From the IMG/VR virus record IMGVR_UViG_3300043567_000426, positions 1 to 61,014 of that record: 61,014 nt of DNA. One strand, given 5' to 3'. Origin of the DNA: a virus (lineage: Duplodnaviria > Caudoviricetes). The position numbers and the translations under genes are program-made. Under the pieces are notes generated by a model. The model was not told where the DNA came from. It saw nothing but the letters and a program-made list of their open reading frames with translations, and made no database searches. This document shows positions 1 to 61,014 of this stretch, piece by piece (the stretch's first letter is position 1; every line of letters begins with the position of its first letter).

Positions 1-1188
1 ATTTTATCAAATATACTTTTGTTCCTGGTATGGGTTTTTACGATATCGGTTTACTTCATATTTTGGGTAATACCACAAACGCGGTTACTGCCGCTTGGCG
101 CGAGATGCTCGATGCCGGCATGTATGCTAACTTCCCCGGCTTCCTTATGGCGGATACTGGCGCGCGTCAGAATACGAATATATTCCGCGTTCCGCCGGGC
201 GGTGGGGCGTTAGTTAAGACGGGCGGCATGCCAATCAATCAGGCCATTATGCCATTGCCTTACAAAGAGGCTGGAGCAGGCTTGATGAACCTTGTCACTA
301 ATATTGTTGAGACGGGACAACGCGTTGGCGGCACGGCTGAAGTTGCTGTTGGCGAAGGGCGCAACGATGCGCCTGTCGGAACAACGATTGCGTTGATTGA
401 TCAGGCGACGAAGGTTCTCAACTCAGTTCACAAGCGCATGCATGCTTCGCAGGCAGAAGAGTTCCAGTTGCTTGTGCGCTGCTTCCGCGAACATCCAGAA
501 AGCTTCTGGAAGAAATGCCGCAAGCCATCAATTCAATGGAGCGAAGCTATCTTCATGCAAGCAGTCAATGACTGCGAGCTTGTTCCGCAAGCAGATCCAA
601 ACACGGCAAGTCATACGCAGCGCGTCATGAAGATCATGGCGTTGAAGCAATTGCAGCAACAAAATCCAGCTATGTATGATCCAAAGGCGATCGACATGGC
701 GGCGTTGAAGGCGATGGGCTGGAGCAACCCAGAACAGTTTATGGTTCCGGCTGAGACGCAGCAACAAGTCCCGCCGGAAGTTCAGAAGGCGATGGCAGAG
801 CTTCAGATCTTGAAGCAGGAGGCAGACGCCAAAACGGCGGTAGCCCAGGCTTCGGTCCAGGAGTCGCAAGTCGATGGCCAAGCGCGTCTGATGGATGCAG
901 AGACCAAGCGCATCCTTGCGCAAGCCAAGTTGCAAGAGACGCAAGCTAAAAGCGGCGTAGAAGCGCCACGCGGCGAAGATCCTTGGCGCCAGGTAGACGC
1001 AGAAGCAAAGATGATGGACGCAGAGACGCGCCGCATACTTGCAGAGCTAAAGGCTGCCGATCTTGGTCTTAACGTAGATAAGATGCAGATGGAATCAGAT
1101 CACCGCGAAGCTGATCGCATTCTTGATTCGCATCATCGCGCTGCTGATCGTGCAACGCAGTTGGCTAAAAACATTAATCCTGTTGAGG
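1..1188 (+). repeat. Terminal duplication, copy 1 (matches 59827-61014)
   Basis: Direct comparison by eye; about 37 substitutions, first ~127 nt identical. Confidence 0.95.
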
Positions 1189-12454: not shown

Positions 12455-14723
<2,269 letters not shown>

Positions 14724-14724
14724 T

Positions 14725-15603
14725 ATGAGCACAATTTCATTATACGGCGACACATCTGGATACGTTAATATAACGGTTCCGCTGACGATTGCTGTCCCTT
14801 GGACAGTGACGCTTCCATCTGCCGCTCCGACAGCGAACGGTCAATATCTTTCCTCGACAACTGCTGGCGTTACTTCATGGTCGTCGCTTGGACCTGCGAC
14901 ATACGCAACTATTGTCGGCTATACGACAACGGTTACATCAGCAAGTCCCGTTACGCTGACATCTTCAAGCACATTTTATCAATTCTTTACTGGCTCAACG
15001 GCGCAGACAGTTGTTCTTCCAGTAACAAGCACACTTGCGACGGGTTGGACTTTCAATATCGTCAATAATAGCACTGCTAATATTACGGTTAATTCGTCAG
15101 GCAGCAATCTCGTTGCAACATGCTTGCCCGGCACAACGCTTCGTCTTATTTGTATCCTGACATCAGGCACTACCGCCGCGTCTTGGGATTCTGAAGTTGT
15201 TGGCTTTACGACTGTAACCGGCACAGGAAATAATGTTTTAGCAACGGCACCAACAATTACTAACCCAACAATCACCGATTACATTGAAACATATTTCAAC
15301 ATCGGAACTGTTACTACATCAGCTTCGCCAACTCTTTCAAACGGAACTGTGCAAACATTGACGCTAACGGCGTCAACAACATGCACAGTTACAATGCCAA
15401 CGGCGACTGCTGGCAAATCATTTATACTTCTTGTTCGTCAAGCTGCATCAACAGGAAATGGCGCAGTGACGTGGTCGTCAGTTAAATGGAATAGCGGAGG
15501 AACGCCAACTGTTACCGCAACCGCTGGCAGGATGGATATTTTTACTTTTGTTGCTGATGGCACAAATTGGTATGGATCTGCCTCACAGGGATATACGCCC
15601 TAA
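14725..15603 (+). CDS. Tail/fibre protein
   Basis: Thr/Ser-rich beta protein; C-terminal DIFTF..DGTNWYG. Confidence 0.6.
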   Translation: MSTISLYGDTSGYVNITVPLTIAVPWTVTLPSAAPTANGQYLSSTTAGVTSWSSLGPATYATIVGYTTTVTSASPVTLTSSSTFYQFFTGSTAQTVVLPVTSTLATGWTFNIVNNSTANITVNSSGSNLVATCLPGTTLRLICILTSGTTAASWDSEVVGFTTVTGTGNNVLATAPTITNPTITDYIETYFNIGTVTTSASPTLSNGTVQTLTLTASTTCTVTMPTATAGKSFILLVRQAASTGNGAVTWSSVKWNSGGTPTVTATAGRMDIFTFVADGTNWYGSASQGYTP

Positions 15604-17159
15604 TGTTTTCGGCGCTTAATTTCTTTCTTGCTGGTGGTGCGGCAAGATATTCAATTGTTGAAACATTTAATGCTTCTGGAAACTGGGTTGCGCCTACAGG
15701 CGTGACGCAACTTGATAGTTATTTAATAGTTGCCGGTGGCGCATCAGGCGGCGGCGGATATGGCGGCGGGGGTGGTGCTGGCGGCTATGTTACCGGATCA
15801 AATCTTTCCGTTACAGCTGGTTCTTCATACACAGTATCCGTAGGCGGCGGTGGCACGGCCTCTGCTGGACAAGGCAATAATGGGAGCCCTAGCTCTTTTC
15901 CGGGTGCGACAACAGCAGTCGGCGGCGGTGGTGGAGGCGCTGTAGCAGCTGGGTCAAATGGCGGTTCTGGCGGCGGTGCTGGATATGGAACTTATCCGGG
16001 CGGAAACGGAACAGCACCACAAGGCTTCAAAGGCGGCGATGCGGTAAATTCTCCCGGTGTAGGCAGCACGGGCGGCGGCGGCGGCGCTGGAGCAGCTGGG
16101 GGCAATGGGACTTATACCCCAAACCCAAACAAATCAGGTGATGGCGGAATAGGCCTTAATACTTATTCTGGCTATAGCGGTTATCTCGCAGGCGGTGGCG
16201 GCGGCGGCATTTATGGCCCAGGTGGAGGAACGGCAGGACTAGGCGGAAATGGCGGCGGCGGCAATGGGGCCGCAAGCGGCGTAGGTTCCAATGGAGCAGC
16301 TAATACAGGTGGTGGTGGCGGCGGCGGGGGTCCCGGTTCTAACAGCGGTGCAGGCGGGTCTGGAATTGTAATTTTAACTTATAAAATTGCCGCAGCTACA
16401 GCGATTACGTTCACTTCTACAGCTACTGTAAAAATTCCGACCGGCTGCACATCAATTGATTATCTTGTTGTTGCTGGTGGTGGCGCTGGCGGAGATAATG
16501 CAGGAGGCGGCGGAGGGGCCGGTGGTTTTGTTACGGCATCAGGCATTGCCGTTACTGCTGGCAATACATTAACCGCGACAATAGGCGCTGGCGGCAATGC
16601 TGGTAATACGGGCAGCGCGCCCGGCGGCAATGGCAGCAACTCAACATTATCTGGAACGGCTCCATTTTCTACTGTAACCGCAACAGGCGGCGGCGGTGGT
16701 GGATATTACAATGGCAATGGAGCGAATGGTGGTTCTGGCGGTGGTGGTGGAGGAGGTTTTCCTTCTAATACAGCTGGAGGAACTGGTGTATCAAGCCCTG
16801 CTCGCCAAGGGTATGATGGCGGCACTGGCGGCTATTATAGCGCCAAGCGCAATGCCGGTGGCGGTGGTGGTGCGAGCATTAATGGAAATAACGGCGCTAC
16901 GGGCCAAGCAGGAAATGGCGGCAATGGCCTAACATTTGGTGGCGTTTATTATGCAGGCGGCGGAGGTGGCGGCGGTAACGACGTAACCAATGTCGGCGCA
17001 GGTGGATTAGGCGGCGGAGGCAGTGGCGGCACTTTCCCAAGCACAATACCGGTAGCAGGATCGCCTAATACAGGCGGTGGCGGAGGCGGAGGCGGATATC
17101 CGCCAAGCTATTATGGCACCAATGGCGGTTCTGGAATCGTAATCATTAAATTTAACTAG
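15603..17159 (+). CDS. Glycine-rich fibre/receptor-binding protein, paralog 1
   Basis: Two F..SG.W.AP.GV....YL.VAGG Gly-rich domains; ends GGSGIVIIKFN; start placed at the ATG overlapping the upstream stop. Confidence 0.7.
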   Translation: MFSALNFFLAGGAARYSIVETFNASGNWVAPTGVTQLDSYLIVAGGASGGGGYGGGGGAGGYVTGSNLSVTAGSSYTVSVGGGGTASAGQGNNGSPSSFPGATTAVGGGGGGAVAAGSNGGSGGGAGYGTYPGGNGTAPQGFKGGDAVNSPGVGSTGGGGGAGAAGGNGTYTPNPNKSGDGGIGLNTYSGYSGYLAGGGGGGIYGPGGGTAGLGGNGGGGNGAASGVGSNGAANTGGGGGGGGPGSNSGAGGSGIVILTYKIAAATAITFTSTATVKIPTGCTSIDYLVVAGGGAGGDNAGGGGGAGGFVTASGIAVTAGNTLTATIGAGGNAGNTGSAPGGNGSNSTLSGTAPFSTVTATGGGGGGYYNGNGANGGSGGGGGGGFPSNTAGGTGVSSPARQGYDGGTGGYYSAKRNAGGGGGASINGNNGATGQAGNGGNGLTFGGVYYAGGGGGGGNDVTNVGAGGLGGGGSGGTFPSTIPVAGSPNTGGGGGGGGYPPSYYGTNGGSGIVIIKFN

Positions 17160-17215: not shown

Positions 17216-18097
17216 ATGGTTGCAACAGTAAAATGCGATACGATCACGAACGCCGCTAACACCGGCACGGCGAACCTGTCGCTTGATTCCAGTGGCAATG
17301 TCACTTTTGGAAACAGTTTAACTATTTCTACTGCGAGCGCGCGTTTTCTTGGTGACTTTTCAAACGCAACTGTATCTACGCGGCTTGCTTTTCAAACAAG
17401 CACAACAAACGGCTCGACGGGCATTTACGCGCTGCCAAATGGCACATCAACTGCTGCAAGTTGGCAGGCGACGAATAATTCTGATCCAACAAATGCCAGC
17501 AAGATTTTGATTGCAACAAATGCAAGCACAGACGTCCAGCTTGTATCTGGAGTTAATGGGTCAGGCACATATCTTCCGCTATCTATTTGGAATAGCGGTG
17601 GCCAGACAGCGCAATTTAGCACGACAAGGGGCACATTTACGCTTGGTGTCGCGGGAACCGCAGCCGGTGTTTTGGTTCTTGCGGGTAGCACATCGGGCAC
17701 TGCAACCCTTAATACCGCAGCTGTTGCTGGATCTTTCACCTACACGTTCACCAATCCCGGCGTTAACGTCAATGTTGGCTATTTAGAGGTTCCACAAAAC
17801 TCACAAGGAAACGGATATACAACCGTTCTTTCTGATAGTGGAAAACATCTTTATTTTAGTGCAGGTGGCGCAACAATTACAATTGCTGCAAATGGCAGCG
17901 TTGCTTATCCACTTGGAACAGTGCTGACGTTTATTAATATGAACGCAAGCAGCTGCTCAATCGCCATATCGTCAGACACAATGTATTTATCCGGCACCGG
18001 AACAACCGGAACGCGCGCACTTGCGCAATACGGGATGGCGACGGCGATTAAAACCGCTTCAACAACTTGGCTGATCAGCGGTTCGGGATTGACCTAA
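17216..18097 (+). CDS. Tail/fibre protein
   Basis: Thr/Ser/Gly-rich; C-terminal W.ISGSGLT. Confidence 0.6.
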   Translation: MVATVKCDTITNAANTGTANLSLDSSGNVTFGNSLTISTASARFLGDFSNATVSTRLAFQTSTTNGSTGIYALPNGTSTAASWQATNNSDPTNASKILIATNASTDVQLVSGVNGSGTYLPLSIWNSGGQTAQFSTTRGTFTLGVAGTAAGVLVLAGSTSGTATLNTAAVAGSFTYTFTNPGVNVNVGYLEVPQNSQGNGYTTVLSDSGKHLYFSAGGATITIAANGSVAYPLGTVLTFINMNASSCSIAISSDTMYLSGTGTTGTRALAQYGMATAIKTASTTWLISGSGLT

Positions 18098-19683
18098 TGA
18101 GCGGCGTTCTTAACCTGCTTTTGGCGAGCGGCGGCAAGGGGCAGGCAACTGTTGTTCAAACCTTTACGGCGTCAGGTAACTGGACGGCACCGACGGGCGT
18201 CACGCAAATTGACAGCTATCTAATCGTCGCAGGCGGTGGCGGTGGCGGAGGATTTGGTGGCGGCGGCGCAGGTGGTTTTAGGACAGCGACCAATGTTGCG
18301 GTTACTGCTGGAACTACTTATGCAATCCAAGTTGGTGGCGCTGGCGCTGGTAGTGGATCTGGATCGGTAAAAGGTAATCCTGGAACCGATAGTTATATAG
18401 CCATAGGTTCATCTCCTTATTCTGCATATAGGTCCGCAGGCGGCGGTGGCGGCGGGGCTTTTAGCAACGCAAATGCGCAAGGGGCTGATGGAGGCTCAGG
18501 TGGAGGCGGCGGAACTGATAGTAGCCCGCCATATACAGGACGCGCTGGTGGCTCGCCCAGCCCTGCAACAACTCCGGCACAAGGATATGCCGGAGGGTCT
18601 GGGGCCACTGGCGGCGCGGCAGGCGGCGGCGGAGGAGGAGCTAATACATCTACGGGAACCGGAGGTAATGGTTCTGGCAGTTCTGGCGGTTCTGGCGGAA
18701 ATGGCGCTCCTTATTCTTTAGGGCCATTTGCTATTTATGCAGGCGGCGGTGGTGGAGCAGGTTCTGGTGCTCTTGGTCCTGGCGGGTCTGGCGGCGGCGG
18801 TAATGGAGAAAAATATAATTTAGCTCCAGCCGCGACTGCCGGTGGCACCAACCAAGGAGGAGGTGGTGGAGGTTCTTATGCAGGAACCCAAGCGGCCGCA
18901 GGAGGATCTGGGATTGTAATTATTTCTTACAAACAACCCGCCTCATCAGTCGCCATCTTCTATTCATCCGGCACCGTAACGATCCCAACGGGCGTTTCAA
19001 CGATTGATTATCTTGTTGTTGCAGGTGGAGGATCTGGAGCGACAGGAACAGGATCGGGCGGCGGAGGCGCTGGCGGTTATAAAGCGGGTACTACAGCCGT
19101 TACAGCCGGAACACCATATACAATAACTGTTGGCGCTGGCGGAACTTCAACAGCCGCCCCTAGTTCAGCTGTAGGAGGCGATGGAACTGGTTCAAGTATC
19201 GGGTCTTTAGTCACCACAACAGGCGGCGGCGGTGGCGGATATGAAGCTCCAAATAGAAACGGACGCAGCGGGGGCTCCGGTGGCGGGGGAGCATATGGCG
19301 GTGGCACTGGTGGGCCAGGAACACCGGGAGAAGGGAATGCTGGCGGCGCTGGCTACAATCCCGCAACAAGTCCTTATGGAGGAGGTGGCGGTGGTGGTGC
19401 TGGAGGAACCGGAGGAAGCGCGCCTAATTCAACTACTGCCGGAAATGGTGGAGCAGGAACTCCATATGGGACGCCTTCAGTAGGCTATGCAGGCGGCGGC
19501 GGCGGTGGCATTAGAACTCCTAGTCCGGCAAGTAGTGCTTCTTCGGGAGGCGGCGCTGGAGGTGTATCTGGTGCTGGAACTGCTGGAACTGCTAATAGAG
19601 GGGGCGGCGGTGGCGGTGCTGGAACCGATGCTACTTTAGGCGGCAATGGCGGCTCTGGCATAGTAATCATCAAGTTCAATTAA
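18097..19683 (+). CDS. Glycine-rich fibre/receptor-binding protein, paralog 2
   Basis: Same two-domain architecture and GGSGIVIIKFN end. Confidence 0.7.
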   Translation: MSGVLNLLLASGGKGQATVVQTFTASGNWTAPTGVTQIDSYLIVAGGGGGGGFGGGGAGGFRTATNVAVTAGTTYAIQVGGAGAGSGSGSVKGNPGTDSYIAIGSSPYSAYRSAGGGGGGAFSNANAQGADGGSGGGGGTDSSPPYTGRAGGSPSPATTPAQGYAGGSGATGGAAGGGGGGANTSTGTGGNGSGSSGGSGGNGAPYSLGPFAIYAGGGGGAGSGALGPGGSGGGGNGEKYNLAPAATAGGTNQGGGGGGSYAGTQAAAGGSGIVIISYKQPASSVAIFYSSGTVTIPTGVSTIDYLVVAGGGSGATGTGSGGGGAGGYKAGTTAVTAGTPYTITVGAGGTSTAAPSSAVGGDGTGSSIGSLVTTTGGGGGGYEAPNRNGRSGGSGGGGAYGGGTGGPGTPGEGNAGGAGYNPATSPYGGGGGGGAGGTGGSAPNSTTAGNGGAGTPYGTPSVGYAGGGGGGIRTPSPASSASSGGGAGGVSGAGTAGTANRGGGGGGAGTDATLGGNGGSGIVIIKFN

Positions 19684-21265: not shown

Positions 21266-21658
21266 ATGGCTAATCCTAATATTGTTAGCGTCACATCTAT
21301 ACTTGGCGTTACGACATATCTGACGCCAAGTGTCACAACTGCAATTTCTTTGCTAAATAATCCAGCTTCTTCTAACAAGGTTTTTAAAATCGAAAGCCTT
21401 GTCGCGTCAAATAACACTGGCTCTGCTGCGACATGCACTGTTTCGTATTACACGGCGGCTAACGTGCAAGGAACAAATCCTCCTACTGGTGGCACCGCTT
21501 TTCCAATTTGCACAAGCGTTTCTGTTCCTGCAAATGCATCATTGGTTGTGATTGAAAAGAGCAACGGCATCTATTTAATGGAAAATGCCTGCATATCTGT
21601 AACGTCTGGCACGGGCAGCGCCATTACCTACACTGTTTCTTATGAGGACATCTCTTAA
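21266..21658 (+). CDS. Structural protein
   Basis: MANPNIVSV...VPA.ASL...IYL.E...SYEDIS. Confidence 0.55.
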   Translation: MANPNIVSVTSILGVTTYLTPSVTTAISLLNNPASSNKVFKIESLVASNNTGSAATCTVSYYTAANVQGTNPPTGGTAFPICTSVSVPANASLVVIEKSNGIYLMENACISVTSGTGSAITYTVSYEDIS

Positions 21659-23355
21659 TGTCTCGCAGACAAAACGGCGGCGTTCTTGGCCCTAATAATA
21701 CGCCAACAACATCTGTTGCATCCGGCGTTTGGTCCTTATTAGCGGCGCAGATTTACACAAGCCAAGGCATTTGGCCTGTTCGAAGAACCATTGTTCAGAC
21801 ATTTACTGCTACGCAAAATTGGACGGCACCTACAGGTGTAACAAGCGTCGATTATCTTGTTGTTGCTGGCGGCGGTGGGGGCGGGTATGAAACTGGCGGT
21901 GGTGGTGGCGGCGGGGGTTTTTTAGCAGGAACAGGGCAAGCTGTTACCGCAGGCGCTTCTTATACAATAACTGTTGGCGCAGCCGGATCGGCAGGAATAT
22001 CCGGATCAGCAACAGGTGGAACAGGCGGCACTTCTTCTATTGCTTTAACCGCATCTCCTTTTACCACGTTAGTATCATCTACTGGTGGTGGGGGTGGAGG
22101 CGGGCAGGCAGGAAATGGCGCGACAGGCGGAGCAGGCGGCGGCGCTAGTCGCGGAGGGACAAAAGGAACAGGAACGTCTGGTCAAGGCGCTGATGGTGGA
22201 AATGGCGGACCTTCATCTGGCGCTGATGTTGCCACTGGTGGCGGTGGTGGGGGTGGGGCCTCTACCAATATTGCGCCCTATCAAGGGGCTAACGGAACAA
22301 GCGGTGTCGGCGGGAATGGTGGTAGCGGAACTGCGTATTCTGGCACATTTTATGCTGGCGGCGGTGGCGGCAGCATCTACTCTGTGCTTAACACTGGAAC
22401 TGTAGGTTCTGGCGGTGCTGGTGGTGGTGGCAATGCAAATCAAGCGGCCGCAGGCTCAAATGGGTCTACTAATTTAGGCGGCGGCGGTGGTGGTGGTGCG
22501 CTTACTAACTCCACTACATACAATGGCGGCGCAGGCGGTTCCGGTATTGTTATTTTATCTTATGTTCAATTTGGCCCGAATGTTCTTGTTTTTAATTCTT
22601 CTGGATCTTTTGTTGTTCCTACTGGCGTATCAACAATTGATTATCTTGTTGTTGCTGGCGGCGGAGGTGGTGGCCAGCTTGGTGGCGGTGGCGGCGCTGG
22701 TGGTTTTATTACTGCATCATCCCAAAGCGTTACTGCTGGCACATCTTATACAGTTACTGTTGGTGCGGGTGGCGCTGGATCAGCTTCTGCTACTTACGCT
22801 ACTACAGGAAGCCCCGGCGGCAATTCGTCATTTGGTCCTTCAGTTACAGCAACGGGGGGCGGTGGCGCTGGAACATACGGCACCTCTTATTTGAGCGGAT
22901 TAAGTGGCGGTTCTGGTGGTGGGGCTGCTCGCCGCGATGCTTCCCCATTGGCAGCTGGAAGTGCTGGGCCTGGAACACCGGGGCAAGGCAATAATGGCGG
23001 CGGCGCTACTGCATCTTCTGGTTATTATGGCGGTGCTGGCGGCGGCGGCGCAGGCGGCGTCGGCGCAAGCATTTCTGGTGCTAATAATAATGGAGGCAAT
23101 GGTGGCGCTGGGTTACCTTCTTCAATAAGTGGAATTACTCCTTCACCATCGTATGCTGGAGGGGGGGGCGGCGCAGCAGGAAGCCCAGGAACTGGAGGAA
23201 CAGCATCTTCTGGCGGTGGCGCTGGTGTCACTAATGCTTCTGGAAACGGGACTGCCGGAACGCCAAATACTGGCGGCGGTGGCGGCGGTTGCGGAAATTA
23301 TCCCAATGTTGGCGGCAACGGCGGCTCAGGCATAGTCATCATCAAGTTCAACTAA
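21658..23355 (+). CDS. Glycine-rich fibre/receptor-binding protein, paralog 3
   Basis: SGVWSL N-terminal motif; two Gly-rich domains; GGSGIVIIKFN end. Confidence 0.7.
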   Translation: MSRRQNGGVLGPNNTPTTSVASGVWSLLAAQIYTSQGIWPVRRTIVQTFTATQNWTAPTGVTSVDYLVVAGGGGGGYETGGGGGGGGFLAGTGQAVTAGASYTITVGAAGSAGISGSATGGTGGTSSIALTASPFTTLVSSTGGGGGGGQAGNGATGGAGGGASRGGTKGTGTSGQGADGGNGGPSSGADVATGGGGGGGASTNIAPYQGANGTSGVGGNGGSGTAYSGTFYAGGGGGSIYSVLNTGTVGSGGAGGGGNANQAAAGSNGSTNLGGGGGGGALTNSTTYNGGAGGSGIVILSYVQFGPNVLVFNSSGSFVVPTGVSTIDYLVVAGGGGGGQLGGGGGAGGFITASSQSVTAGTSYTVTVGAGGAGSASATYATTGSPGGNSSFGPSVTATGGGGAGTYGTSYLSGLSGGSGGGAARRDASPLAAGSAGPGTPGQGNNGGGATASSGYYGGAGGGGAGGVGASISGANNNGGNGGAGLPSSISGITPSPSYAGGGGGAAGSPGTGGTASSGGGAGVTNASGNGTAGTPNTGGGGGGCGNYPNVGGNGGSGIVIIKFN

Positions 23356-43734: not shown

Positions 43735-44490
43735 CTATATTCCCCAAATCTCAAAAGCAGCTTGCGCTGTATCTGGATCGTTAAAGTAAAAGCTATCGCG
43801 CTCTGGCACCACAAATGATGCAAGCTCCGCTGGATCTTTCGATAAAGATAAAAACCGCTGTATCGTTAAGGCGATTCGTTCAACGGCTTTGACATGCTCT
43901 GCAATATTTTCAAGCCTATATGTTGCGCACTTTTTTGGCGTGACGTAGGTAAGGCGGCCATCAATATCCCCACCCGTCGCTGCACAGTAAAGGGCAACTT
44001 GACGCGCATGTTTGTTCGAGATTTTAGACGGTAATGCATGGGTTGTCTTCAGATCGACCAGAATTTTACTTTGTTCCCAAAATAAATCGTAATACCCAAT
44101 GATCGGCACTGACAGCCAATCGACGCGATATTCGATCTTACCTTGGGTCGAGGATGGTGCCCCATACGGCGCAAGCTCTTGCAAGCCGATTTTAACCATC
44201 TCTCCAACAGCGGATTTTTCTTTTTCGGATCGTGGGTCACTAGATAATACGTTAAGGCGCCAAAATTCTTTTTCCGCGACATCGACGCATTCCTTCTCGC
44301 TTGCGCCAGTTGTTAACCCATGAACAATACCTGTCTCTACAGATGTGCCTCTGTGCGCAGCTGCTCCTACCTGTCCTTTTTTCTTGAACACATAGGACAA
44401 TAGAAACGCGGCCGGAGAAGCCTCGTAAAGATTGCATGATGAAGATGATAGGTGTTCTATGCCGTGCGCGGCAAACGCGTCATTAACCAC
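43735..44490 (-). CDS. PD-(D/E)XK exonuclease (PDDEXK_1 / Cas4-like)
   Basis: HLS.SS, G..D.......DLKT, Q.ALY; start re-set to the GTG after a GAGG RBS. Confidence 0.75.
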   Translation of the reverse strand: MVNDAFAAHGIEHLSSSSCNLYEASPAAFLLSYVFKKKGQVGAAAHRGTSVETGIVHGLTTGASEKECVDVAEKEFWRLNVLSSDPRSEKEKSAVGEMVKIGLQELAPYGAPSSTQGKIEYRVDWLSVPIIGYYDLFWEQSKILVDLKTTHALPSKISNKHARQVALYCAATGGDIDGRLTYVTPKKCATYRLENIAEHVKAVERIALTIQRFLSLSKDPAELASFVVPERDSFYFNDPDTAQAAFEIWGI

Positions 44491-44519
44491 TTCTACCTCA
44501 ATTTCGATTTGATGGCCTA

Positions 44520-44548
44520 ACATAGCCACCCAGATTTTTTCAGTCAAG
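44520..44548 (-). promoter_or_regulatory. Alphaproteobacterial sigma70-type promoter for the leftward operon
   Basis: CTTGAC-N17-CTATGT on the minus strand. Confidence 0.6.
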
Positions 44549-44652
44549 CGCCAAAAAAGTGTTTGACAAAAGATTTTTTCCATTTAACCCTATATACACT
44601 GTGACGTATCGATATTGAATTAGGTGCTCTATGCAAAACACAAGTTCATCAT

Positions 44653-44737
44653 CGCATCTTGTCGAGCCTCGCGGCGTCACTGTGTCGCGTAACGCAAGGT
44701 TGCGTGGCGCGTCGTATCTCAATGCCTTACAACGCAA
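44653..44737 (+). ncRNA. Pentamer tract U1 (17 x [CGC-like + NN]); putative guide RNA
   Basis: cgcAT cttGT cgaGC ctcGC ggcGT cacTG tgtCG cgtAA cgcAA ggtTG cgtGG cgcGT cgtAT ctcAA tgcCT tacAA cgcAA. Confidence 0.75.
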
Positions 44738-44770
44738 CGTTTATCTAACGCAAACTAAATGGAGATTGAA

Positions 44771-45340
44771 ATGAGAATGTGCCGTATTAAAATTAAATCC
44801 ATCACGCCTTATTCAGCATCGCGTCCTGTCGATATTGAGAGAAATAAATCGGAAGGCCATGAGGAATTTGACAAGCGCATTTGGCGCGAGAAAGCGCACT
44901 TCACAAAAGATGAAGATGTTTTTATTCCCGGCGTTTCTTTCAAGCTGGCATTGGATGAAGTTGCATCTATGCTTAATGAAAAGATCAAAGGTAAAGGCAA
45001 TCAGACTTACGGAAAGATTGTTTCCACAGCAACTGTAGCAATGAGTGATCTTTTTATTAGTGTTAAAAAATCAGATCTAAAATCTATCACGATCTTTGCT
45101 AACCTTGATGGCAAGCGCGGCGGAACTGTTCGCGGAAATAGAACTTTCCCTATTGTGCCATCATGGGAAGGATCTGTTGATTTCCAGATCTTTAATGATG
45201 AACTTCCTGCGGAAGTCTTTGAGCGTTATATGACGCAAGCCGGATTGCTTACAGGCGTAGGCCGTGGGCGTCCGGGCATGAAGGCCCCTGCGGGTAATGG
45301 TCGTTTCCAGCCAATATCTTTTGAGTGGTCGGAAATTTAA
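44771..45340 (+). CDS. Stand-alone RAMP / Cas7-like protein
   Basis: N-terminal strand IKIKSITP, FIPGVSFKLAL (cf. IPGSSLKGAL in Cas7-group RAMPs), C-terminal G-rich loop GVGRGRP...GNGRF; 189 aa; no other cas genes nearby. Confidence 0.75.
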   Translation: MRMCRIKIKSITPYSASRPVDIERNKSEGHEEFDKRIWREKAHFTKDEDVFIPGVSFKLALDEVASMLNEKIKGKGNQTYGKIVSTATVAMSDLFISVKKSDLKSITIFANLDGKRGGTVRGNRTFPIVPSWEGSVDFQIFNDELPAEVFERYMTQAGLLTGVGRGRPGMKAPAGNGRFQPISFEWSEI

Positions 45341-45344
45341 TATT

Positions 45345-45601
45345 CGCACCATGACGTTTCGCCACGCGGCGCGACTCTTCTATCTGCAACGCAACGATAG
45401 ACAGGAGTTAACATCAAAAATGCTAGAGATCTATTTAAAAAATAGAAAGGTTTAACATCGCCTCGAAACTAATTGCGACGAAGCTAACCGTGGCGACACG
45501 CTGCGCAATACAACGCAACGGTTCATTAGACAATTTATTGTCGCTCTGTGCCGACCCGCGTCGTTACGCATCTTGACGAGTCGCGTAGCAACTCAACGCA
45601 A
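45345..45601 (+). ncRNA. Pentamer tracts U2 (45345-45394), U3 (45459-45518) and U4 (45542-45601)
   Basis: 10, 12 and 12 in-phase units, each ending in AA units with a final CGCAA; AT-rich linkers. Confidence 0.75.
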
Positions 45602-45622
45602 CAAATCACCAAGGAGAGTAAA

Positions 45623-46114
45623 ATGCCTAGAAGGCCAATGTTTAAGCAATCAGAAGAGACAATAAAAATTATTGCTCTCTTTAAGGAAATGCCGATTGGT
45701 AAGGAAATATCGTATCAAGACGCATCAGCAATCGTAGGGTTTAAGATAACGTCAACGCTTCCAGCATATCAGACAGCAAAGAAAGCTGCGGAGCGGGATC
45801 ATAACGTCGTTGTAGAAAGCATCAGAAGCTTTGGCTTTGTGCGCATTGACGGCACTGGCATGGTCGATCGCGCAAGCCGATTCTTTAAGAAAGTTCGCAA
45901 GGGCTCGCGCCGGGAGGCCCATGTGCAGGAAATCGCCATAACCACAAATCTCACGCGCGGTCAAATGATAACCGCGACTGAGCAGCTATCGCGCTTACGA
46001 ATATTAGAGACGACCGCATCAAGAGTTAAGTCTAGTAAAAACAAAGACGATGATGCGCTAAATAATTTTGTGTTTGACAATAGAGAAGCTTTGAAGGCTC
46101 TATTGACGAAATAA
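45623..46114 (+). CDS. Basic 163-aa unknown protein embedded in the pentamer array
   Basis: AAGGAG RBS before ATG 45623; flanked on both sides by tracts. Confidence 0.65.
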   Translation: MPRRPMFKQSEETIKIIALFKEMPIGKEISYQDASAIVGFKITSTLPAYQTAKKAAERDHNVVVESIRSFGFVRIDGTGMVDRASRFFKKVRKGSRREAHVQEIAITTNLTRGQMITATEQLSRLRILETTASRVKSSKNKDDDALNNFVFDNREALKALLTK

Positions 46115-46116
46115 TG

Positions 46117-46596
46117 CGGGACGCTGCTCGACGCTTTGCCGCGCGGCGCTTCTTGGCGACTTGTCGCTAATCGTAACGCCCGATTCTGCAACTCAACGCA
46201 ACGGTTCATTAGATGATTTACTACCGCAACGCTACACGCCTAGTCTTCCTGCAACGCTCTGCTCCGCATCTTAGCGCGCCTCAGTGTCACGCAACACAAC
46301 GCAACGGTTTATTTGTCAATTTACCCTCGCGGCTCATCGCACTACCCCTCAACGCAACGCAGGGTGGCGCTCTGCAACTCAACGCAACGGTTCATTATGC
46401 AATTTATTCACGCCGCTAATCGCATTGTGCCTCAACGCACTGCGTCGTGTCGCCGTGCAACTCAACGCAACGGTTCATTATGAAATTTATCTCCGTCACG
46501 CTTGGCTCCTCGCCGTATTGCATCGTTTCTCAGCATGGCGCACAGTCACGCACAGCACGGCTCCTTGACGCTACGCCCAGCAACTCAACGCAACGG
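46117..46596 (+). ncRNA. Pentamer tracts U5-U9 (46117-46201, 46225-46304, 46328-46387, 46411-46470, 46494-46593)
   Basis: 17, 16, 12, 12 and 20 in-phase units; shared end GCAAC(T/A)CAACGCAACGG followed by a TTCATTA..AATTTA-like linker. Confidence 0.85.
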
Positions 46597-46604
46597 AATA
46601 TTAA

Positions 46605-47060
46605 ATGACTGAAGCATGCATCATGGGAATAGATCCCGGCGTCTCTGGCGCCGTGGCATTTTATTTTCCAGATTACCCTAATAGAATTTCGGTATATGAT
46701 GCGCCATCGGTAGGGAAAGAAATTAATGCTCCAGCACTTGCGCAGCTTATTAAACAATATAGCCCAACAATTTGTTATATCGAATCAGTCAACGCAATGC
46801 CAAAGCAAGGCGTCACAAGCAGCTTCAACTTCGGACAAGCATATGGCTGCGTTCGAGGAGTGGTTGCAGCGTGTGGAGTTCCGACTGTTTTGGTAAGCCC
46901 ACGAAAGTGGAAAAGCTTTTTTGCTTTGGATTCGGATAAAGAAAAATCCAGAAGACTAGCAATAATGAAATGGCCTGATGGCGGTCATTTTAACAGAAAG
47001 AAAGATGACGGCCGCGCGGAAGCGGCCTTGATTGCTTTATATGGGAGCAAACAGTTATGA
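46605..47060 (+). CDS. RuvC-like Holliday junction resolvase
   Basis: GIDPG..GA, IE.V.AMP.QGV.S.FNFG, P..WK, DGRAEA.LIA. Confidence 0.85.
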   Translation: MTEACIMGIDPGVSGAVAFYFPDYPNRISVYDAPSVGKEINAPALAQLIKQYSPTICYIESVNAMPKQGVTSSFNFGQAYGCVRGVVAACGVPTVLVSPRKWKSFFALDSDKEKSRRLAIMKWPDGGHFNRKKDDGRAEAALIALYGSKQL

Positions 47061-58673: not shown

Positions 58674-61014
58674 ATGCCGATGACGCCGGGCTTGCCCTAC
58701 AATATTCGTCAAGAGCAGCAAGCACCGGCAGGGCTTGGCGCCGCTGAAGATCTGATGGTTGAGATTGAAGAGGGGCCGGACAAGCCAAAGACTGATGAGA
58801 GCGGCAAGATCTTAACGATTGAGCATGATGACGGCTCCATCACGGTATCGCTTGATGGCCGTTCGCTTGATGGCGATTCAGATGCCGCTCGCGCAGAAGA
58901 GTGGTTTGGCAATCTCGTTGAAGACATAGACCAAGCAACGCTTGGCCGCATTGCAGAAGATCTGCTTCGCGGCGTTCGCGATGACTTAGATAGCAGGCAG
59001 GATTGGATTGAAGACCGCGCCCAAGGCATGAAGCTTTTGGGCTTGAAGGTTGAGATACCAGGTTTGCAGGGCGCCGTTGACGGTGCGCCTGTTGAAGGCA
59101 TGAGCCGCGTTCGCCATCCATTGCTACTTGAAGCGGTGCTCCGCTTCCAAGCCAATGCGCGCAGCGAGTTGCTTCCAACTGACGGTCCTGTGAAGGTTCG
59201 CGATGATGCGGATAAAGATTCGCCAGAGCAGCAACAGCTTGCTGATGCGTTGGAGAACGATCTTAATCAGTATCTGACGGCGGTAGCCAAAGAATATTAT
59301 CCTGATACTGACCGCATGCTTTTCATGCTTGGCTTTGGCGGCACGGCCTTCAAAAAAGTTTACTTCTGCCCATTGCGCGGCAGACCTGTAAGCGAGACGG
59401 TCGATGCTGATGACTTGATCGTTAACAATGCGGCGACGACGCTAGACGACGCAAAGCGCATAACGCATCGCGTCTTCATGCGCCCGTCAACTGTGCGCAG
59501 ATTGCAGATCCTTGGCGTTTATCGCGACATTGATCTGACAACGCCAAATCAATATCAGGCCGATGAGGTGCAACGCCAGAAGGCAGACGTTCAAGGTATC
59601 TCGATTGATTCGATGAACCCGGACGATCGCGACCGGGAGATCTATGAGATTTATTGTGAGCTCGACATACCGGGCTTCGAGCACAAATATAAGGGGAAAG
59701 AAACTGGCCTCGAAATTCCGTATCGCGTAACGATCGATGTGAGCTCGCGAGAGATCCTCTCAATAGTGAGGAACTACGATGAGCCAACGGGAGAAGAAGG
59801 CGACGAACTGCCTGAGTCCAGAAACAATTTTATCAAATATACTTTTGTTCCTGGTATGGGTTTTTACGATATCGGTTTACTTCATATTTTGGGTAATACC
59901 ACAAACGCGGTTACTGCCGCTTGGCGCGAGATGCTCGATGCCGGCATGTATGCGAACTTCCCCGGCTTCCTTATGGCGGATACTGGCGCGCGTCAGAATA
60001 CGAATATATTCCGCGTTCCGCCGGGCGGTGGGGCGCTAGTTAAAACGGGCGGCATGCCAATCAATCAGGCCATTATGCCCTTGCCTTACAAAGAGGCTGG
60101 CGCAGGCTTGATGAACCTTGTCACCAATATTGTTGAGACGGGCCAGCGCGTTGGCGGCACGGCTGAAGTTGCTGTTGGCGAAGGGCGCAATGATGCGCCT
60201 GTCGGAACAACGATTGCGTTGATTGATCAGGCGACGAAGGTTCTCAACTCAGTTCACAAGCGCATGCATGCTTCGCAGGCAGAAGAGTTCCAGTTGCTTG
60301 TGCGTTGCTTTCGCGAACACCCAGATAGCTTCTGGAAGAAATGCCGCAAGCCATCAATTCAATGGAGCGAGGCGATCTTCATGCAAGCAGTCAATGACTG
60401 CGAGCTTGTTCCGCAAGCAGACCCAAACACCGCAAGCCATACGCAGCGCGTCATGAAGATCATGGCGTTGAAGCAATTGCAGCAACAAAACCCAGCCATG
60501 TATGATCCAAAGGCGATCGACATGGCGGCATTGAAGGCGATGGGCTGGAGCAACCCAGAACAGTTTATGGTTCCGGCTGAGACGCAGCAACAAGTCCCGC
60601 CGGAAGTCCAGAAGGCGATGGCGGAGCTTCAGATCTTGAAGCAGGAGGCAGACGCCAAGACGGCGGTTGCCCAGGCTTCGGTCCAGGAGTCGCAAGTCGA
60701 TGGCCAAGCGCGCCTGATGGACGCAGAGACCAAGCGCATCCTTGCGCAGGCGAAGCTGCAAGAGACGCAAGCCAAAAGCGGCGTAGAAGCGCCACGCGGC
60801 GAAGACCCTTGGCGCCAAGTAGACGCAGAAGCACAGATGATGGACGCAGAGACGCGCCGCATACTTGCAGAGTTAAAGGCTGCTGATCTTGGTCTTAACG
60901 TAGATAAGATGCAGATGGAATCAGATCATCGCGAAGCTGATCGCATTCTTGATTCGCATCATCGCGCTGCTGATCGTGCAACGCAGTTGGCTAAAAACAT
61001 TAATCCTGTTGAGG
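58674..61014 (+). CDS. Portal protein (runs off the window end; about 782 aa when closed through the duplication)
   Basis: ATG 58674; NL.E, SR..W, HPLL.EA...FQA.A..ELLP..GPVK, G.AFKKVY; absent from the ORF track because there is no stop. Confidence 0.85.
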   Translation, partial: MPMTPGLPYNIRQEQQAPAGLGAAEDLMVEIEEGPDKPKTDESGKILTIEHDDGSITVSLDGRSLDGDSDAARAEEWFGNLVEDIDQATLGRIAEDLLRGVRDDLDSRQDWIEDRAQGMKLLGLKVEIPGLQGAVDGAPVEGMSRVRHPLLLEAVLRFQANARSELLPTDGPVKVRDDADKDSPEQQQLADALENDLNQYLTAVAKEYYPDTDRMLFMLGFGGTAFKKVYFCPLRGRPVSETVDADDLIVNNAATTLDDAKRITHRVFMRPSTVRRLQILGVYRDIDLTTPNQYQADEVQRQKADVQGISIDSMNPDDRDREIYEIYCELDIPGFEHKYKGKETGLEIPYRVTIDVSSREILSIVRNYDEPTGEEGDELPESRNNFIKYTFVPGMGFYDIGLLHILGNTTNAVTAAWREMLDAGMYANFPGFLMADTGARQNTNIFRVPPGGGALVKTGGMPINQAIMPLPYKEAGAGLMNLVTNIVETGQRVGGTAEVAVGEGRNDAPVGTTIALIDQATKVLNSVHKRMHASQAEEFQLLVRCFREHPDSFWKKCRKPSIQWSEAIFMQAVNDCELVPQADPNTASHTQRVMKIMALKQLQQQNPAMYDPKAIDMAALKAMGWSNPEQFMVPAETQQQVPPEVQKAMAELQILKQEADAKTAVAQASVQESQVDGQARLMDAETKRILAQAKLQETQAKSGVEAPRGEDPWRQVDAEAQMMDAETRRILAELKAADLGLNVDKMQMESDHREADRILDSHHRAADRATQLAKNINPVE
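59827..61014 (+). repeat. Terminal duplication, copy 2 (matches 1-1188)
   Basis: Direct comparison. Confidence 0.95.

What the first reader, a model, noticed from the sequence alone, without database searches (positions are those of the whole stretch)
44653..46596. Stand-alone Cas7/RAMP-like gene with an array of 5-nt-periodic non-coding tracts: candidate RNA-guided system
Seen: nine tracts (128 units by hand count) in which a semi-conserved triplet alternates with a freely variable dinucleotide with no phase slips. The triplet is CGC in 48 of 128 units and most others are close variants (TGC, CTC, CGT, CGA). One tract precedes, three follow, and five lie one gene downstream of a 189-aa ORF carrying Cas7-group RAMP hallmarks (IPGxSxK-like motif, C-terminal G-rich loop). 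No cas1, cas2, cas3, cas5 or cas6 and no canonical CRISPR array are present. Established: Cas7 RAMPs polymerise along guide RNA with a fixed nucleotide step. Inference: each subunit grips one triplet and displays NN, giving a non-contiguous guide. From memory and unverified, this resembles recently reported phage VIPR-type systems with GGY/NN units; here the scaffold is CGC-like, which would be a different variant.
Basis: partly seen in the sequence, partly recalled or inferred. Interest (0 to 1): 0.97.

Follow-up and report, generated by a model that had tools for sequence, protein, structure and literature searches.

The report
Phage VIPR guide-RNA locus, CGY-type
A lake-water phage carries a small Cas7-like protein, a DNA-binding helper gene and nine arrays of five-letter repeats that match the recently described VIPR RNA-guided silencing systems, here built on a C-G-pyrimidine scaffold instead of the published G-G-pyrimidine one.

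Summary
Nine tracts on the + strand (44653-46603) consist of in-phase pentamers: a semi-conserved triplet (C/G/Y) plus a free dinucleotide. They are the only such tracts in the 61-kb phage genome.

The 189-aa ORF is a homologue of the solved SUSP1 Vipr protein: profile E 2.5e-11 against PDB 36pp, and hhalign probability 98%. Its model has a Cas7/Csm3-like fold.

The second gene is a conserved winged-helix partner, present in 75 of 80 related viral loci. All 80 loci have period-5 tracts abutting the gene, and most show a CGC consensus.

Two near-identical phages share seven cassettes and differ by whole cassettes. Shared cassettes are better conserved than the genes beside them.

Transcription, RNA binding, the skip rule and the targets are not shown here.

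The CGY scaffold and the (CGCAA)n 3' cap are not named in the main text of the four preprints I searched. Their figures and supplements, which I could not see, may show them.

The parts
44653..44742 (+). vrRNA cassette t1: 15 guide pentamers plus tail units. The tail runs into the ribosome-binding site of vipr.
   Evidence: Phased units; recovered by the tract caller; NN identical in L004/L005.
44771..45340 (+). vipr: 189-aa single-RRM RAMP protein. GGAG lies 6 nt before the ATG.
   Evidence: PDB 36pp 'SUSP1 Vipr protein' E 2.5e-11; hhalign 98%; AF2 pLDDT 94.8; Foldseek finds Cas7/Csm3 at E 7.5e-8; 788 representative relatives.
45345..45399 (+). vrRNA cassette t2: 8 guide pentamers plus a short tail. 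It starts 5 nt after the vipr stop codon.
45459..45528 (+). vrRNA cassette t3: 9 guide pentamers plus tail.
45542..45611 (+). vrRNA cassette t4: 9 guide pentamers plus tail. The tail runs into the ribosome-binding site of the next gene.
45623..46114 (+). vap-like accessory gene: 163 aa, with an N-terminal winged helix-turn-helix followed by two long helices.
   Evidence: Homologues next to vipr in 75 of 80 viral loci; AF2 pLDDT 89; weak wHTH matches only; hhalign to SUSP1 vap1 62.6%, E 7e-5.
46117..46211 (+). vrRNA cassette t5: 14 guide pentamers plus tail. Absent from the near-identical phages L004/L005.
46225..46314 (+). vrRNA cassette t6: 13 guide pentamers plus tail.
46328..46397 (+). vrRNA cassette t7: 9 guide pentamers plus tail.
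46411..46480 (+). vrRNA cassette t8: 9 guide pentamers plus tail. Absent from L004/L005 and from one contig of run X17.
   Evidence: joint 46372->46456 skipping 83 nt.
46494..46603 (+). vrRNA cassette t9: 17 guide pentamers plus tail. The tail abuts the start of the RuvC-like resolvase gene at 46605.
   Evidence: resolvase phrog_1770 E 2.9e-32.

Best explanation
The block 44653-46603 is a VIPR (Viral Interference Programmable Repeat) system of a complete ~60-kb tailed phage from lake water. It holds, all on the + strand:
- a Vipr RAMP protein;
- a winged-helix accessory (vap-like) protein;
- nine vrRNA cassettes, arranged 1 + 3 + 5.

Each cassette is 8-17 pentamers of a C-G-Y scaffold triplet plus a free dinucleotide. 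It ends in a shared ~30-nt tail that starts with xGCAA-CTCAA-CGCAA-CGG.

Shown here:
- homology and fold of the protein;
- the repeat anatomy and its polarity;
- co-occurrence of protein, partner gene and tracts across the family;
- gain and loss of whole cassettes;
- strong conservation of shared cassettes.

Inferred by homology with SUSP1 VIPR, where it was shown by small-RNA sequencing, pull-down, cryo-EM and reporter assays in the preprints:
- the block is transcribed rightward and cut into RNAs of about 80-120 nt;
- Vipr protomers line up one per pentamer, bury the scaffold triplet and display the NN pairs;
- the string of NN pairs reads a gapped DNA site, probably NN plus one skipped base, in a rival phage or satellite, and blocks its transcription;
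- the accessory protein helps.
For: Protein. A profile of 92 family members hits PDB 36pp_D 'SUSP1 Vipr protein' at E 2.5e-11 over query 22-182. hhalign against the SUSP1 gene product gives probability 98%, E 2.7e-13, over 167 columns. The AF2 model has pLDDT 94.8 and pTM 0.89. Its best PDB matches are type VII Cas7, Csm3 and Cmr4.

Tracts. See the numbers.

Polarity. SUSP1's own GGT/NN units and 3' tail lie on the vipr strand, as here. Across 245 unique CGC-type tracts from 60 loci, NN = AA at units -2 and -3 in 149 and 138 tracts. CGCAACGCAA sits at the 3' end in 80 tracts, against 5 at the 5' end.

Co-occurrence. 80 of 80 viral loci with a homologue have period-5 segments within about 60 nt of the gene. 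75 of 80 have the partner gene on the same strand. A Roseomonas scaffold and a Gemmatimonadota MAG carry CGC/NN and CGT/NN tracts next to their homologues.

Modularity. L004 and L005 (99% protein identity) keep 7 cassettes, 6 with identical NN and t2 at 0.95. They lack t5 and t8 and carry 3 unrelated cassettes. A contig of run X17 lacks exactly the 83-nt t8 cassette.

Constraint. Shared cassettes differ at 4 of 525 positions. vipr differs at 21 of 570 (Fisher p 0.001) and vap at 35 of 492 (p 7e-8).

No self-target beyond shuffled guides at skip 0-2, as the preprint reports for its own systems.
Against: - No RNA evidence of any kind is available.
- No promoter- or terminator-like site falls in the arrays.
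- No target was found, so neither the skip rule nor DNA targeting is tested for this clade.
- The scaffold is not the published GGY.
- The SUSP1 residues said to contact G1 and G2 (H17, D177, R138, W178) align here with a gap or Ser, Arg165, Phe126 and Gly166. RNA recognition therefore cannot simply be copied from the structure.
- The cassettes fold no better than shuffles, z from -0.62 to +1.31. A structured tail like the SUSP1 pseudoknot is not supported.
- Similarity of the partner gene to SUSP1 vap1 is weak: 62.6% probability.
Confidence: 0.85

Rival explanations
1. The locus is a Vipr-vrRNA particle as above, but it does a different job. It might read RNA rather than DNA, use another skip length, or regulate the phage's own or the host's genes rather than silence rival elements.
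For: The scaffold triplet and the base-contacting residues differ from SUSP1. No rival-element target was found. The locus sits inside the replication module, between a PD-(D/E)XK nuclease, a RuvC-like resolvase and a primase-helicase.
Against: No site in the phage's own 61 kb exceeds shuffled guides at skip 0, 1 or 2. Whole-cassette turnover between near-identical phages fits a conflict system better than housekeeping control. The host genome is unknown and was not searched.
Confidence: 0.1
2. The tracts act as DNA, for example as iterons or bent DNA of a replication origin or as binding sites for the winged-helix protein. The RAMP gene next to them would then not use them as RNA.
For: They lie in a replication-gene neighbourhood. 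The winged-helix partner is always adjacent. There is no RNA evidence.
Against: The tracts follow the RAMP gene in 80 of 80 loci. They keep a fixed strand and a 3' cap relative to that gene. A variable dinucleotide inside a fixed 5-nt frame, with all 16 pairs used, is not how iterons look. The homologous SUSP1 tracts were shown to be RNAs bound by Vipr.
Confidence: 0.03
3. The locus is a decaying remnant of a VIPR system that no longer works.
For: Many triplets depart from CGC: only 37 of 103 guide units are exact. The aromatic G-loop residue that is F, W or Y in most relatives is Gly here.
Against: Both ORFs are intact. Shared cassettes are more conserved than the genes. The Gly variant is invariant in 23 of 23 sequences of the window's own subclade. 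The preprint itself notes frequent internal degeneracy of vrRNAs.
Confidence: 0.03

Closest known systems
VIPR type II: Escherichia phage SUSP1 and the P. fulva prophage (bioRxiv 10.64898/2026.04.26.720920, 10.64898/2026.04.26.720927, 10.64898/2026.10.15.759431)
   Same: A ~190-aa Vipr RAMP is followed by a ~150-aa DNA-binding-type accessory gene. One vrRNA lies upstream and an array downstream. Pentamers carry a variable NN, with a constant tail at the 3' end. Everything is on one strand and phage-borne.
   Different: The scaffold is C-G-Y, not G-G-Y. Three further cassettes lie between vipr and vap. The tail is short, starts with (CGCAA)-type units and shows no predicted fold. There is no conserved leader before each cassette as seen in SUSP1. 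Protein identity is 19%.
Non-canonical VIPR arrays reported from entropy periodicity (bioRxiv 10.64898/2026.10.21.760802)
   Same: Period-5 arrays next to Vipr-like folds whose fixed triplet is not GGY. The text names GAC, CAC, WGT and TGH as examples.
   Different: CGC, CGY, YGY and CGH do not occur in that paper's main text. Its Fig. S10 is not held, so I cannot tell whether this clade is among its 21 clusters.
Class 1 CRISPR backbone proteins: Cas7 of type VII, Csm3, Cmr4
   Same: Same RRM core, glycine-rich loop and thumb. These are the best structural matches, at E 7.5e-8 to 5e-5 and TM 0.45-0.61.
   Different: There is no CRISPR array and no Cas1 or Cas2. The step is 5 nt rather than 6. 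The guide is read as separated dinucleotides rather than a near-contiguous spacer; this last point is inferred from SUSP1.

Membership tests
VIPR (whole family, as defined in 10.64898/2026.04.26.720920) | Vipr protein: a minimal single-RRM RAMP with G-loop and thumb, homologous to described Viprs | tested here: met
   PDB 36pp_D E 2.5e-11; hhalign 98%, 167 columns; AF2 pLDDT 94.8 with Cas7/Csm3 as the top folds.
VIPR (whole family, as defined in 10.64898/2026.04.26.720920) | Intergenic tandem pentamers next to vipr: a conserved part alternating with hypervariable NN, at least 4 units. The consensus is GGY/NN or a related one; the methods name YNNGG, NNNGG, YNNNG and NNNNG. | tested here: met
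   Nine tracts of 8-17 guide units. Entropy is 0.99/1.05/1.40 bits against 1.96/1.99 bits. In the paper's register the unit reads C-NN-C-G, which fits YNNNG.
VIPR (whole family, as defined in 10.64898/2026.04.26.720920) | Constant 3' tail after each repeat tract | tested here: met
   A shared tail follows all nine tracts. The 3' cap is conserved across the clade. Whether the tail folds is unresolved.
VIPR (whole family, as defined in 10.64898/2026.04.26.720920) | Adjacent accessory (vap) gene with a DNA-interacting fold | tested here: met
   The partner gene is present in 75 of 80 loci. The model has winged-helix topology. Structural and profile matches are weak.
VIPR (whole family, as defined in 10.64898/2026.04.26.720920) | vrRNAs are transcribed, about 100 nt long, and co-purify with Vipr | not testable with these tools
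   No run on record as RNA holds the stretch.
VIPR (whole family, as defined in 10.64898/2026.04.26.720920) | NN string matches gapped DNA targets (1-nt skip rule) in other mobile elements | tested here: inconclusive
   Only about 446 kb of local sequence could be searched, and there was no excess over decoys.
VIPR type II (SUSP1 / P. fulva clade) | GGY scaffold triplet | tested here: not met
   Position 1 is C in 82 of 103 guide units and G in 6.
VIPR type II (SUSP1 / P. fulva clade) | Structured (pseudoknot) tail of about 40-60 nt | tested here: inconclusive
   Seven cassettes fold with z from -0.62 to +1.31 against shuffles. Pseudoknots are not modelled by that tool.
CRISPR-Cas class 1 | CRISPR array of direct repeats and spacers | tested here: not met
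   TRF finds only the 83-nt cassette period and coding repeats.
CRISPR-Cas class 1 | Adaptation genes cas1 and cas2 | tested here: not met
   PF01867 and PF09827 give no match in the 61-kb record, and the controls ring.

The most novel reading that the evidence does not exclude
This phage belongs to a large Vipr clade that reads a different scaffold word, C-G-Y instead of G-G-Y. It caps each guide with (CGCAA)2-3 units in place of a pseudoknot tail.

In a rough tree rooted on SUSP1, the GGC-type relatives sit near the base and the CGC types fill the crown. The C-first scaffold would then be a derived switch of RNA specificity inside one protein family.

Such a switch would make VIPR systems of co-infecting phages orthogonal: rival or decoy vrRNAs with the other scaffold could not be loaded. 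It would also give a second, independent scaffold for programmable repressors.
Probability: 0.3. Interest if true: 0.6.

Novelty: new member of a known kind. Interest (0 to 1): 0.4.

Why it matters
VIPR is a months-old class of RNA-guided DNA binders, proposed to predate CRISPR. This locus adds a complete, well-delimited natural example from an uncultured freshwater phage, with nine guides.

It also shows that a whole clade uses a C-G-Y scaffold. That covers 68 of 81 rows in my sample, plus two bacterial genomes.

GGC-type and CGC-type relatives lie within one alignable family, which makes a natural experiment for finding how Vipr reads its scaffold. One column already separates them: Arg124 in 58 of 58 CGC-type sequences against Lys in 4 of 4 GGC-type sequences. 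This is a lead, not a result.

Whole-cassette swaps between 97%-identical phages, and in a lake metagenome contig, show how guide sets turn over without Cas1 or Cas2.

Tried and rejected
Searches that gave nothing
- Pfam found nothing for either gene at E 0.1. PHROGs gave only phrog_4652, of unknown function, at E 1.9e-5 for the RAMP.
- tblastn of the RAMP against 50,697 phage records found no match at E 0.01.
- Rfam found nothing relevant in 44400-46800 at E 5 (one chance-level lncRNA row), and nothing in six related loci at E 0.01. There are therefore no hammerhead ribozymes between cassettes.
- The promoter/terminator scan found 5 promoter-like sites against 3.6 expected and 1 terminator-like site against 2.9 expected. 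None is in the arrays.
- No tRNA genes were found.

Structure and binding
- Seven cassettes fold no better than shuffles.
- Three copies of the RAMP were sent to complex prediction. The verdict was 'no answer', and I report it only here.

Target searches, all inside scripts
- Nine guides were run against the window at skip 0-3. Nothing exceeded the shuffled guides, apart from the trivial self match at skip 3.
- The same nine guides were run against 385 kb of related loci. All results were near the null.
- 271 unique guides from all loci were run against 446 kb with decoys. No excess appeared at skip 0, 1 or 2.

A hypothesis I tested and rejected
- I considered that the G-loop change Asp177->Arg explains C instead of G at scaffold position 1. 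All 81 rows have Arg there whether the triplet is CGC or GGC.
- That set was fetched with a pattern that required Arg, so it cannot test the converse.

RNA evidence
- No RNA holder is listed among 24 runs.
- Parts of the stretch without contig cover mean nothing.

Host
- Two scans of genome contigs gave no close relative. The best hits were 40% identity (Roseomonas) and 37% (a Gemmatimonadota MAG).

Literature
- 'CGC' and 'CGY' have 0 occurrences in the main text of each of the four VIPR preprints.
- Figures are not held and supplements are closed. Fig. S17, Data S4 and Fig. S10 may already show this consensus and assign a type.

Papers, and what I saw of each
- 720920: outline, Results, sections 20 and 26, and found passages.
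- 720927: outline and section 5.
- 759431: outline and found passages.
- 760802: found passages and section 33.
Full report
What is there

The window is a whole IMG/VR virus record of 61,014 bases, rated 100% complete by CheckV. It is a tailed phage with tail fibres, a DNA ejection protein and virion proteins.

Between 44,600 and 46,610 everything lies on the + strand. In order:
- a tract, t1;
- a 189-aa ORF (44771-45340);
- three tracts, t2-t4;
- a 163-aa ORF (45623-46114);
- five tracts, t5-t9;
- then, at once, a RuvC-like resolvase gene.

Upstream lies a divergent PD-(D/E)XK nuclease, and downstream a primase-polymerase/helicase.

Is the periodicity real?

Yes.
- Lag-5 identity is 0.386-0.402 in the three intergenic stretches and about 0.25 in the genes. 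The 28 strongest 100-nt windows of the genome all lie in this locus.
- Laid out in fives, every tract stays in one phase.
- In 103 guide units, position 1 is C in 82, position 2 is G in 75 and never C, and position 3 is C or T in 89. The two remaining positions carry 1.96 and 1.99 bits, with all 16 dinucleotides used.
- 79 of 103 triplets are within one mismatch of CGC, against 38.5 +/- 2.7 (maximum 50) in 2000 shuffles.
- A caller trained on the locus finds these nine tracts and nothing else in 61 kb.
- Period 5 rules out coding.

Each tract ends in a shared tail that begins xGCAA-CTCAA-CGCAA-CGG and runs on for about 15 AT-rich bases. The next cassette starts 3-4 bases later. TRF sees this as an 83-nt period.

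The protein

- It has no Pfam family, but 788 representative clusters match at E <= 0.001.
- A profile of 92 members hits one solved structure, chain 36pp_D 'SUSP1 Vipr protein', at E 2.5e-11.
- I fetched phage SUSP1 (KT454805.2). hhalign of the family against its 195-aa gene product gives 98% probability, E 2.7e-13, 167 columns and 19% identity.
- The AlphaFold model is confident (pLDDT 94.8, pTM 0.89). Its best PDB matches are Cas7 of type VII, Csm3 and Cmr4, with 111 matches at E <= 0.001.
- In BFVD, 3 matches reach E <= 0.001, one of them named a RAMP superfamily protein.

The protein is therefore a Vipr homologue with a RAMP fold.

The residues that contact G1 and G2 in the SUSP1 cryo-EM structure (H17, D177, R138, W178) are not kept. 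They align with a gap or Ser, Arg165, Phe126 and Gly166. Arg179, which holds the pyrimidine, aligns with Arg167.

The partner gene

- jackhmmer over the ORFs of the fetched loci finds homologues in 75 of 80 loci, always on the vipr strand. 73 lie downstream and 2 upstream.
- The model (pLDDT 89) has helix-strand-helix-helix-strand-strand topology, followed by two long helices.
- Structural matches are all weak: none at E <= 0.001, with the best at 0.045-0.9, mostly winged-helix regulators.
- Profile matches to the HTH of Ada/MGMT (E 0.015) and to sigma region 4 (E 0.22) are also weak.
- hhalign to SUSP1 vap1 gives 62.6% probability and E 7e-5.

I call it vap-like. Its DNA-binding role is inferred.

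The family

- A scan of IMG/VR with the G-loop pattern gave 80 loci. This pattern forces Arg at the D177 position.
- All 80 have lag-5 segments within about 60 nt of the gene. The threshold was 0.13, and the 99.9th percentile of shuffles is 0.145.
- An EM estimate of the unit gives CGC in 68 of 81 rows (window included), GGC in 6, and other or mis-phased words in 7. The rows are not independent: there are 68 unique proteins.
- GGC relatives have the canonical GGY word on the same strand. That fixes the register: this clade differs from the published code at position 1.
- A FastTree rooted on SUSP1, on a very long branch, puts the GGC, GTC and GAC types near the base and the CGC types in the crown, with the window on a long branch next to L006. 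I give this little weight.
- One alignment column separates the types: Arg124 in 58 of 58 CGC sequences, Lys in 4 of 4 GGC sequences. Shared ancestry confounds this.
- Two bacterial assemblies, Roseomonas and a Gemmatimonadota MAG, carry homologues with CGC/NN and CGT/NN tracts.

Polarity

- SUSP1's GGT/NN units and its tail lie on the vipr strand, with the tail 3'.
- In 245 unique CGC-type tracts, units -2 and -3 have NN = AA in 149 and 138 cases. CGCAACGCAA lies at the 3' end in 80 tracts, against 5 at the 5' end.
- This asymmetry, the fixed strand, and the tails that run into ribosome-binding sites all fit an RNA made rightward with the genes.

Turnover and constraint

- Two phages with 99% identical Vipr (L004, L005) share seven cassettes: six with identical NN and t2 at 0.95. 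They lack t5 and t8 and hold three cassettes unrelated to any of the window's.
- A DNA contig of run X17 joins 46372 to 46456 and so skips exactly one 83-nt cassette, with 27 ambiguous bases at the joint. This is what recombination between tails would give.
- Another contig, in X19, shares only the tail and has CGC-periodic flanks.
- Shared cassettes differ at 4 of 525 positions, vipr at 21 of 570 and vap at 35 of 492.

What is not shown

- No RNA run holds the locus.
- No promoter or terminator was called in the arrays.
- The cassettes show no fold of their own.
- No target was found in the phage itself or in about 446 kb of related loci. I did not scan the large collections with gapped guide patterns, because that would mean typing derived sequence.
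- The skip rule, DNA targeting and the identity of the rivals are therefore carried over from SUSP1.

Comparison and novelty

VIPR was described in April-October 2026 preprints with these features:
- a Vipr RAMP, a vap gene and vrRNAs of GGY/NN 'or a related consensus';
- seven types;
- alternative registers including YNNNG.

A later preprint reports 21 period-5 clusters with non-GGY words. The present locus meets every family feature that can be tested on sequence. It fails the two type II features tested or leaves them open: the GGY triplet is not met, and the structured tail is inconclusive.

The words CGC and CGY occur in none of the four main texts. The logos are in figures and supplements that I could not see.

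I therefore file this as a new member of a known kind. The CGY scaffold and the (CGCAA)n cap may be an undescribed variant.

Noticed in passing
window 1-1188 and 59827-61014: The first 1188 bases repeat the last 1188 at 96.9% identity. The record is probably a circular or terminally redundant genome of about 59.8 kb, assembled through two strain variants, although it is classed 'linear'.
   Followed up: partly
L068 1421-2520 and 3041-4080; L073 3051-4690: In two relatives, long arrays (14 and 12 called tracts) have a conserved GC-rich element with hairpin-like inverted repeats between cassettes. It occurs 12 and 9 times respectively. No Rfam family matches, hammerhead included. It may be a processing or terminator module.
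   Followed up: partly
L041 3138-3470: A GGC-type relative ends its tracts with GGCAA-CACAA-GGCAA-GG. This is the same cap pattern as the window's CGCAA-type cap, with G for C at position 1.
   Followed up: no
window residue 124 of the 189-aa protein (about 45140-45142): Arg in 58 of 58 CGC-type sequences and Lys in 4 of 4 GGC-type sequences. It lies two residues before the position aligned with SUSP1 thumb residue R138. This is a candidate scaffold-specificity residue, confounded by phylogeny.
   Followed up: partly
window 45430-45446: An AT-only inverted repeat lies between cassettes t2 and t3. L004 and L005 have about 104 extra bases in this gap.
   Followed up: no
window 13197-14723: The tail-fibre gene is full of collagen-like 9- and 18-nt repeats.
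   Followed up: no
window 15567-17159, 18067-19683, 21658-23355: Three paralogous genes share a phrog_2295 C-terminal domain, at E 5e-77, 9e-69 and 5e-78. They may be alternative receptor-binding proteins.
   Followed up: no
run X19, contig of 1475 nt laid at window 46290-46325: A contig in a lake-water run shares only the vrRNA tail with the window. Its flanks are CGC-periodic, so it is another array with the same tail in the same habitat.
   Followed up: no
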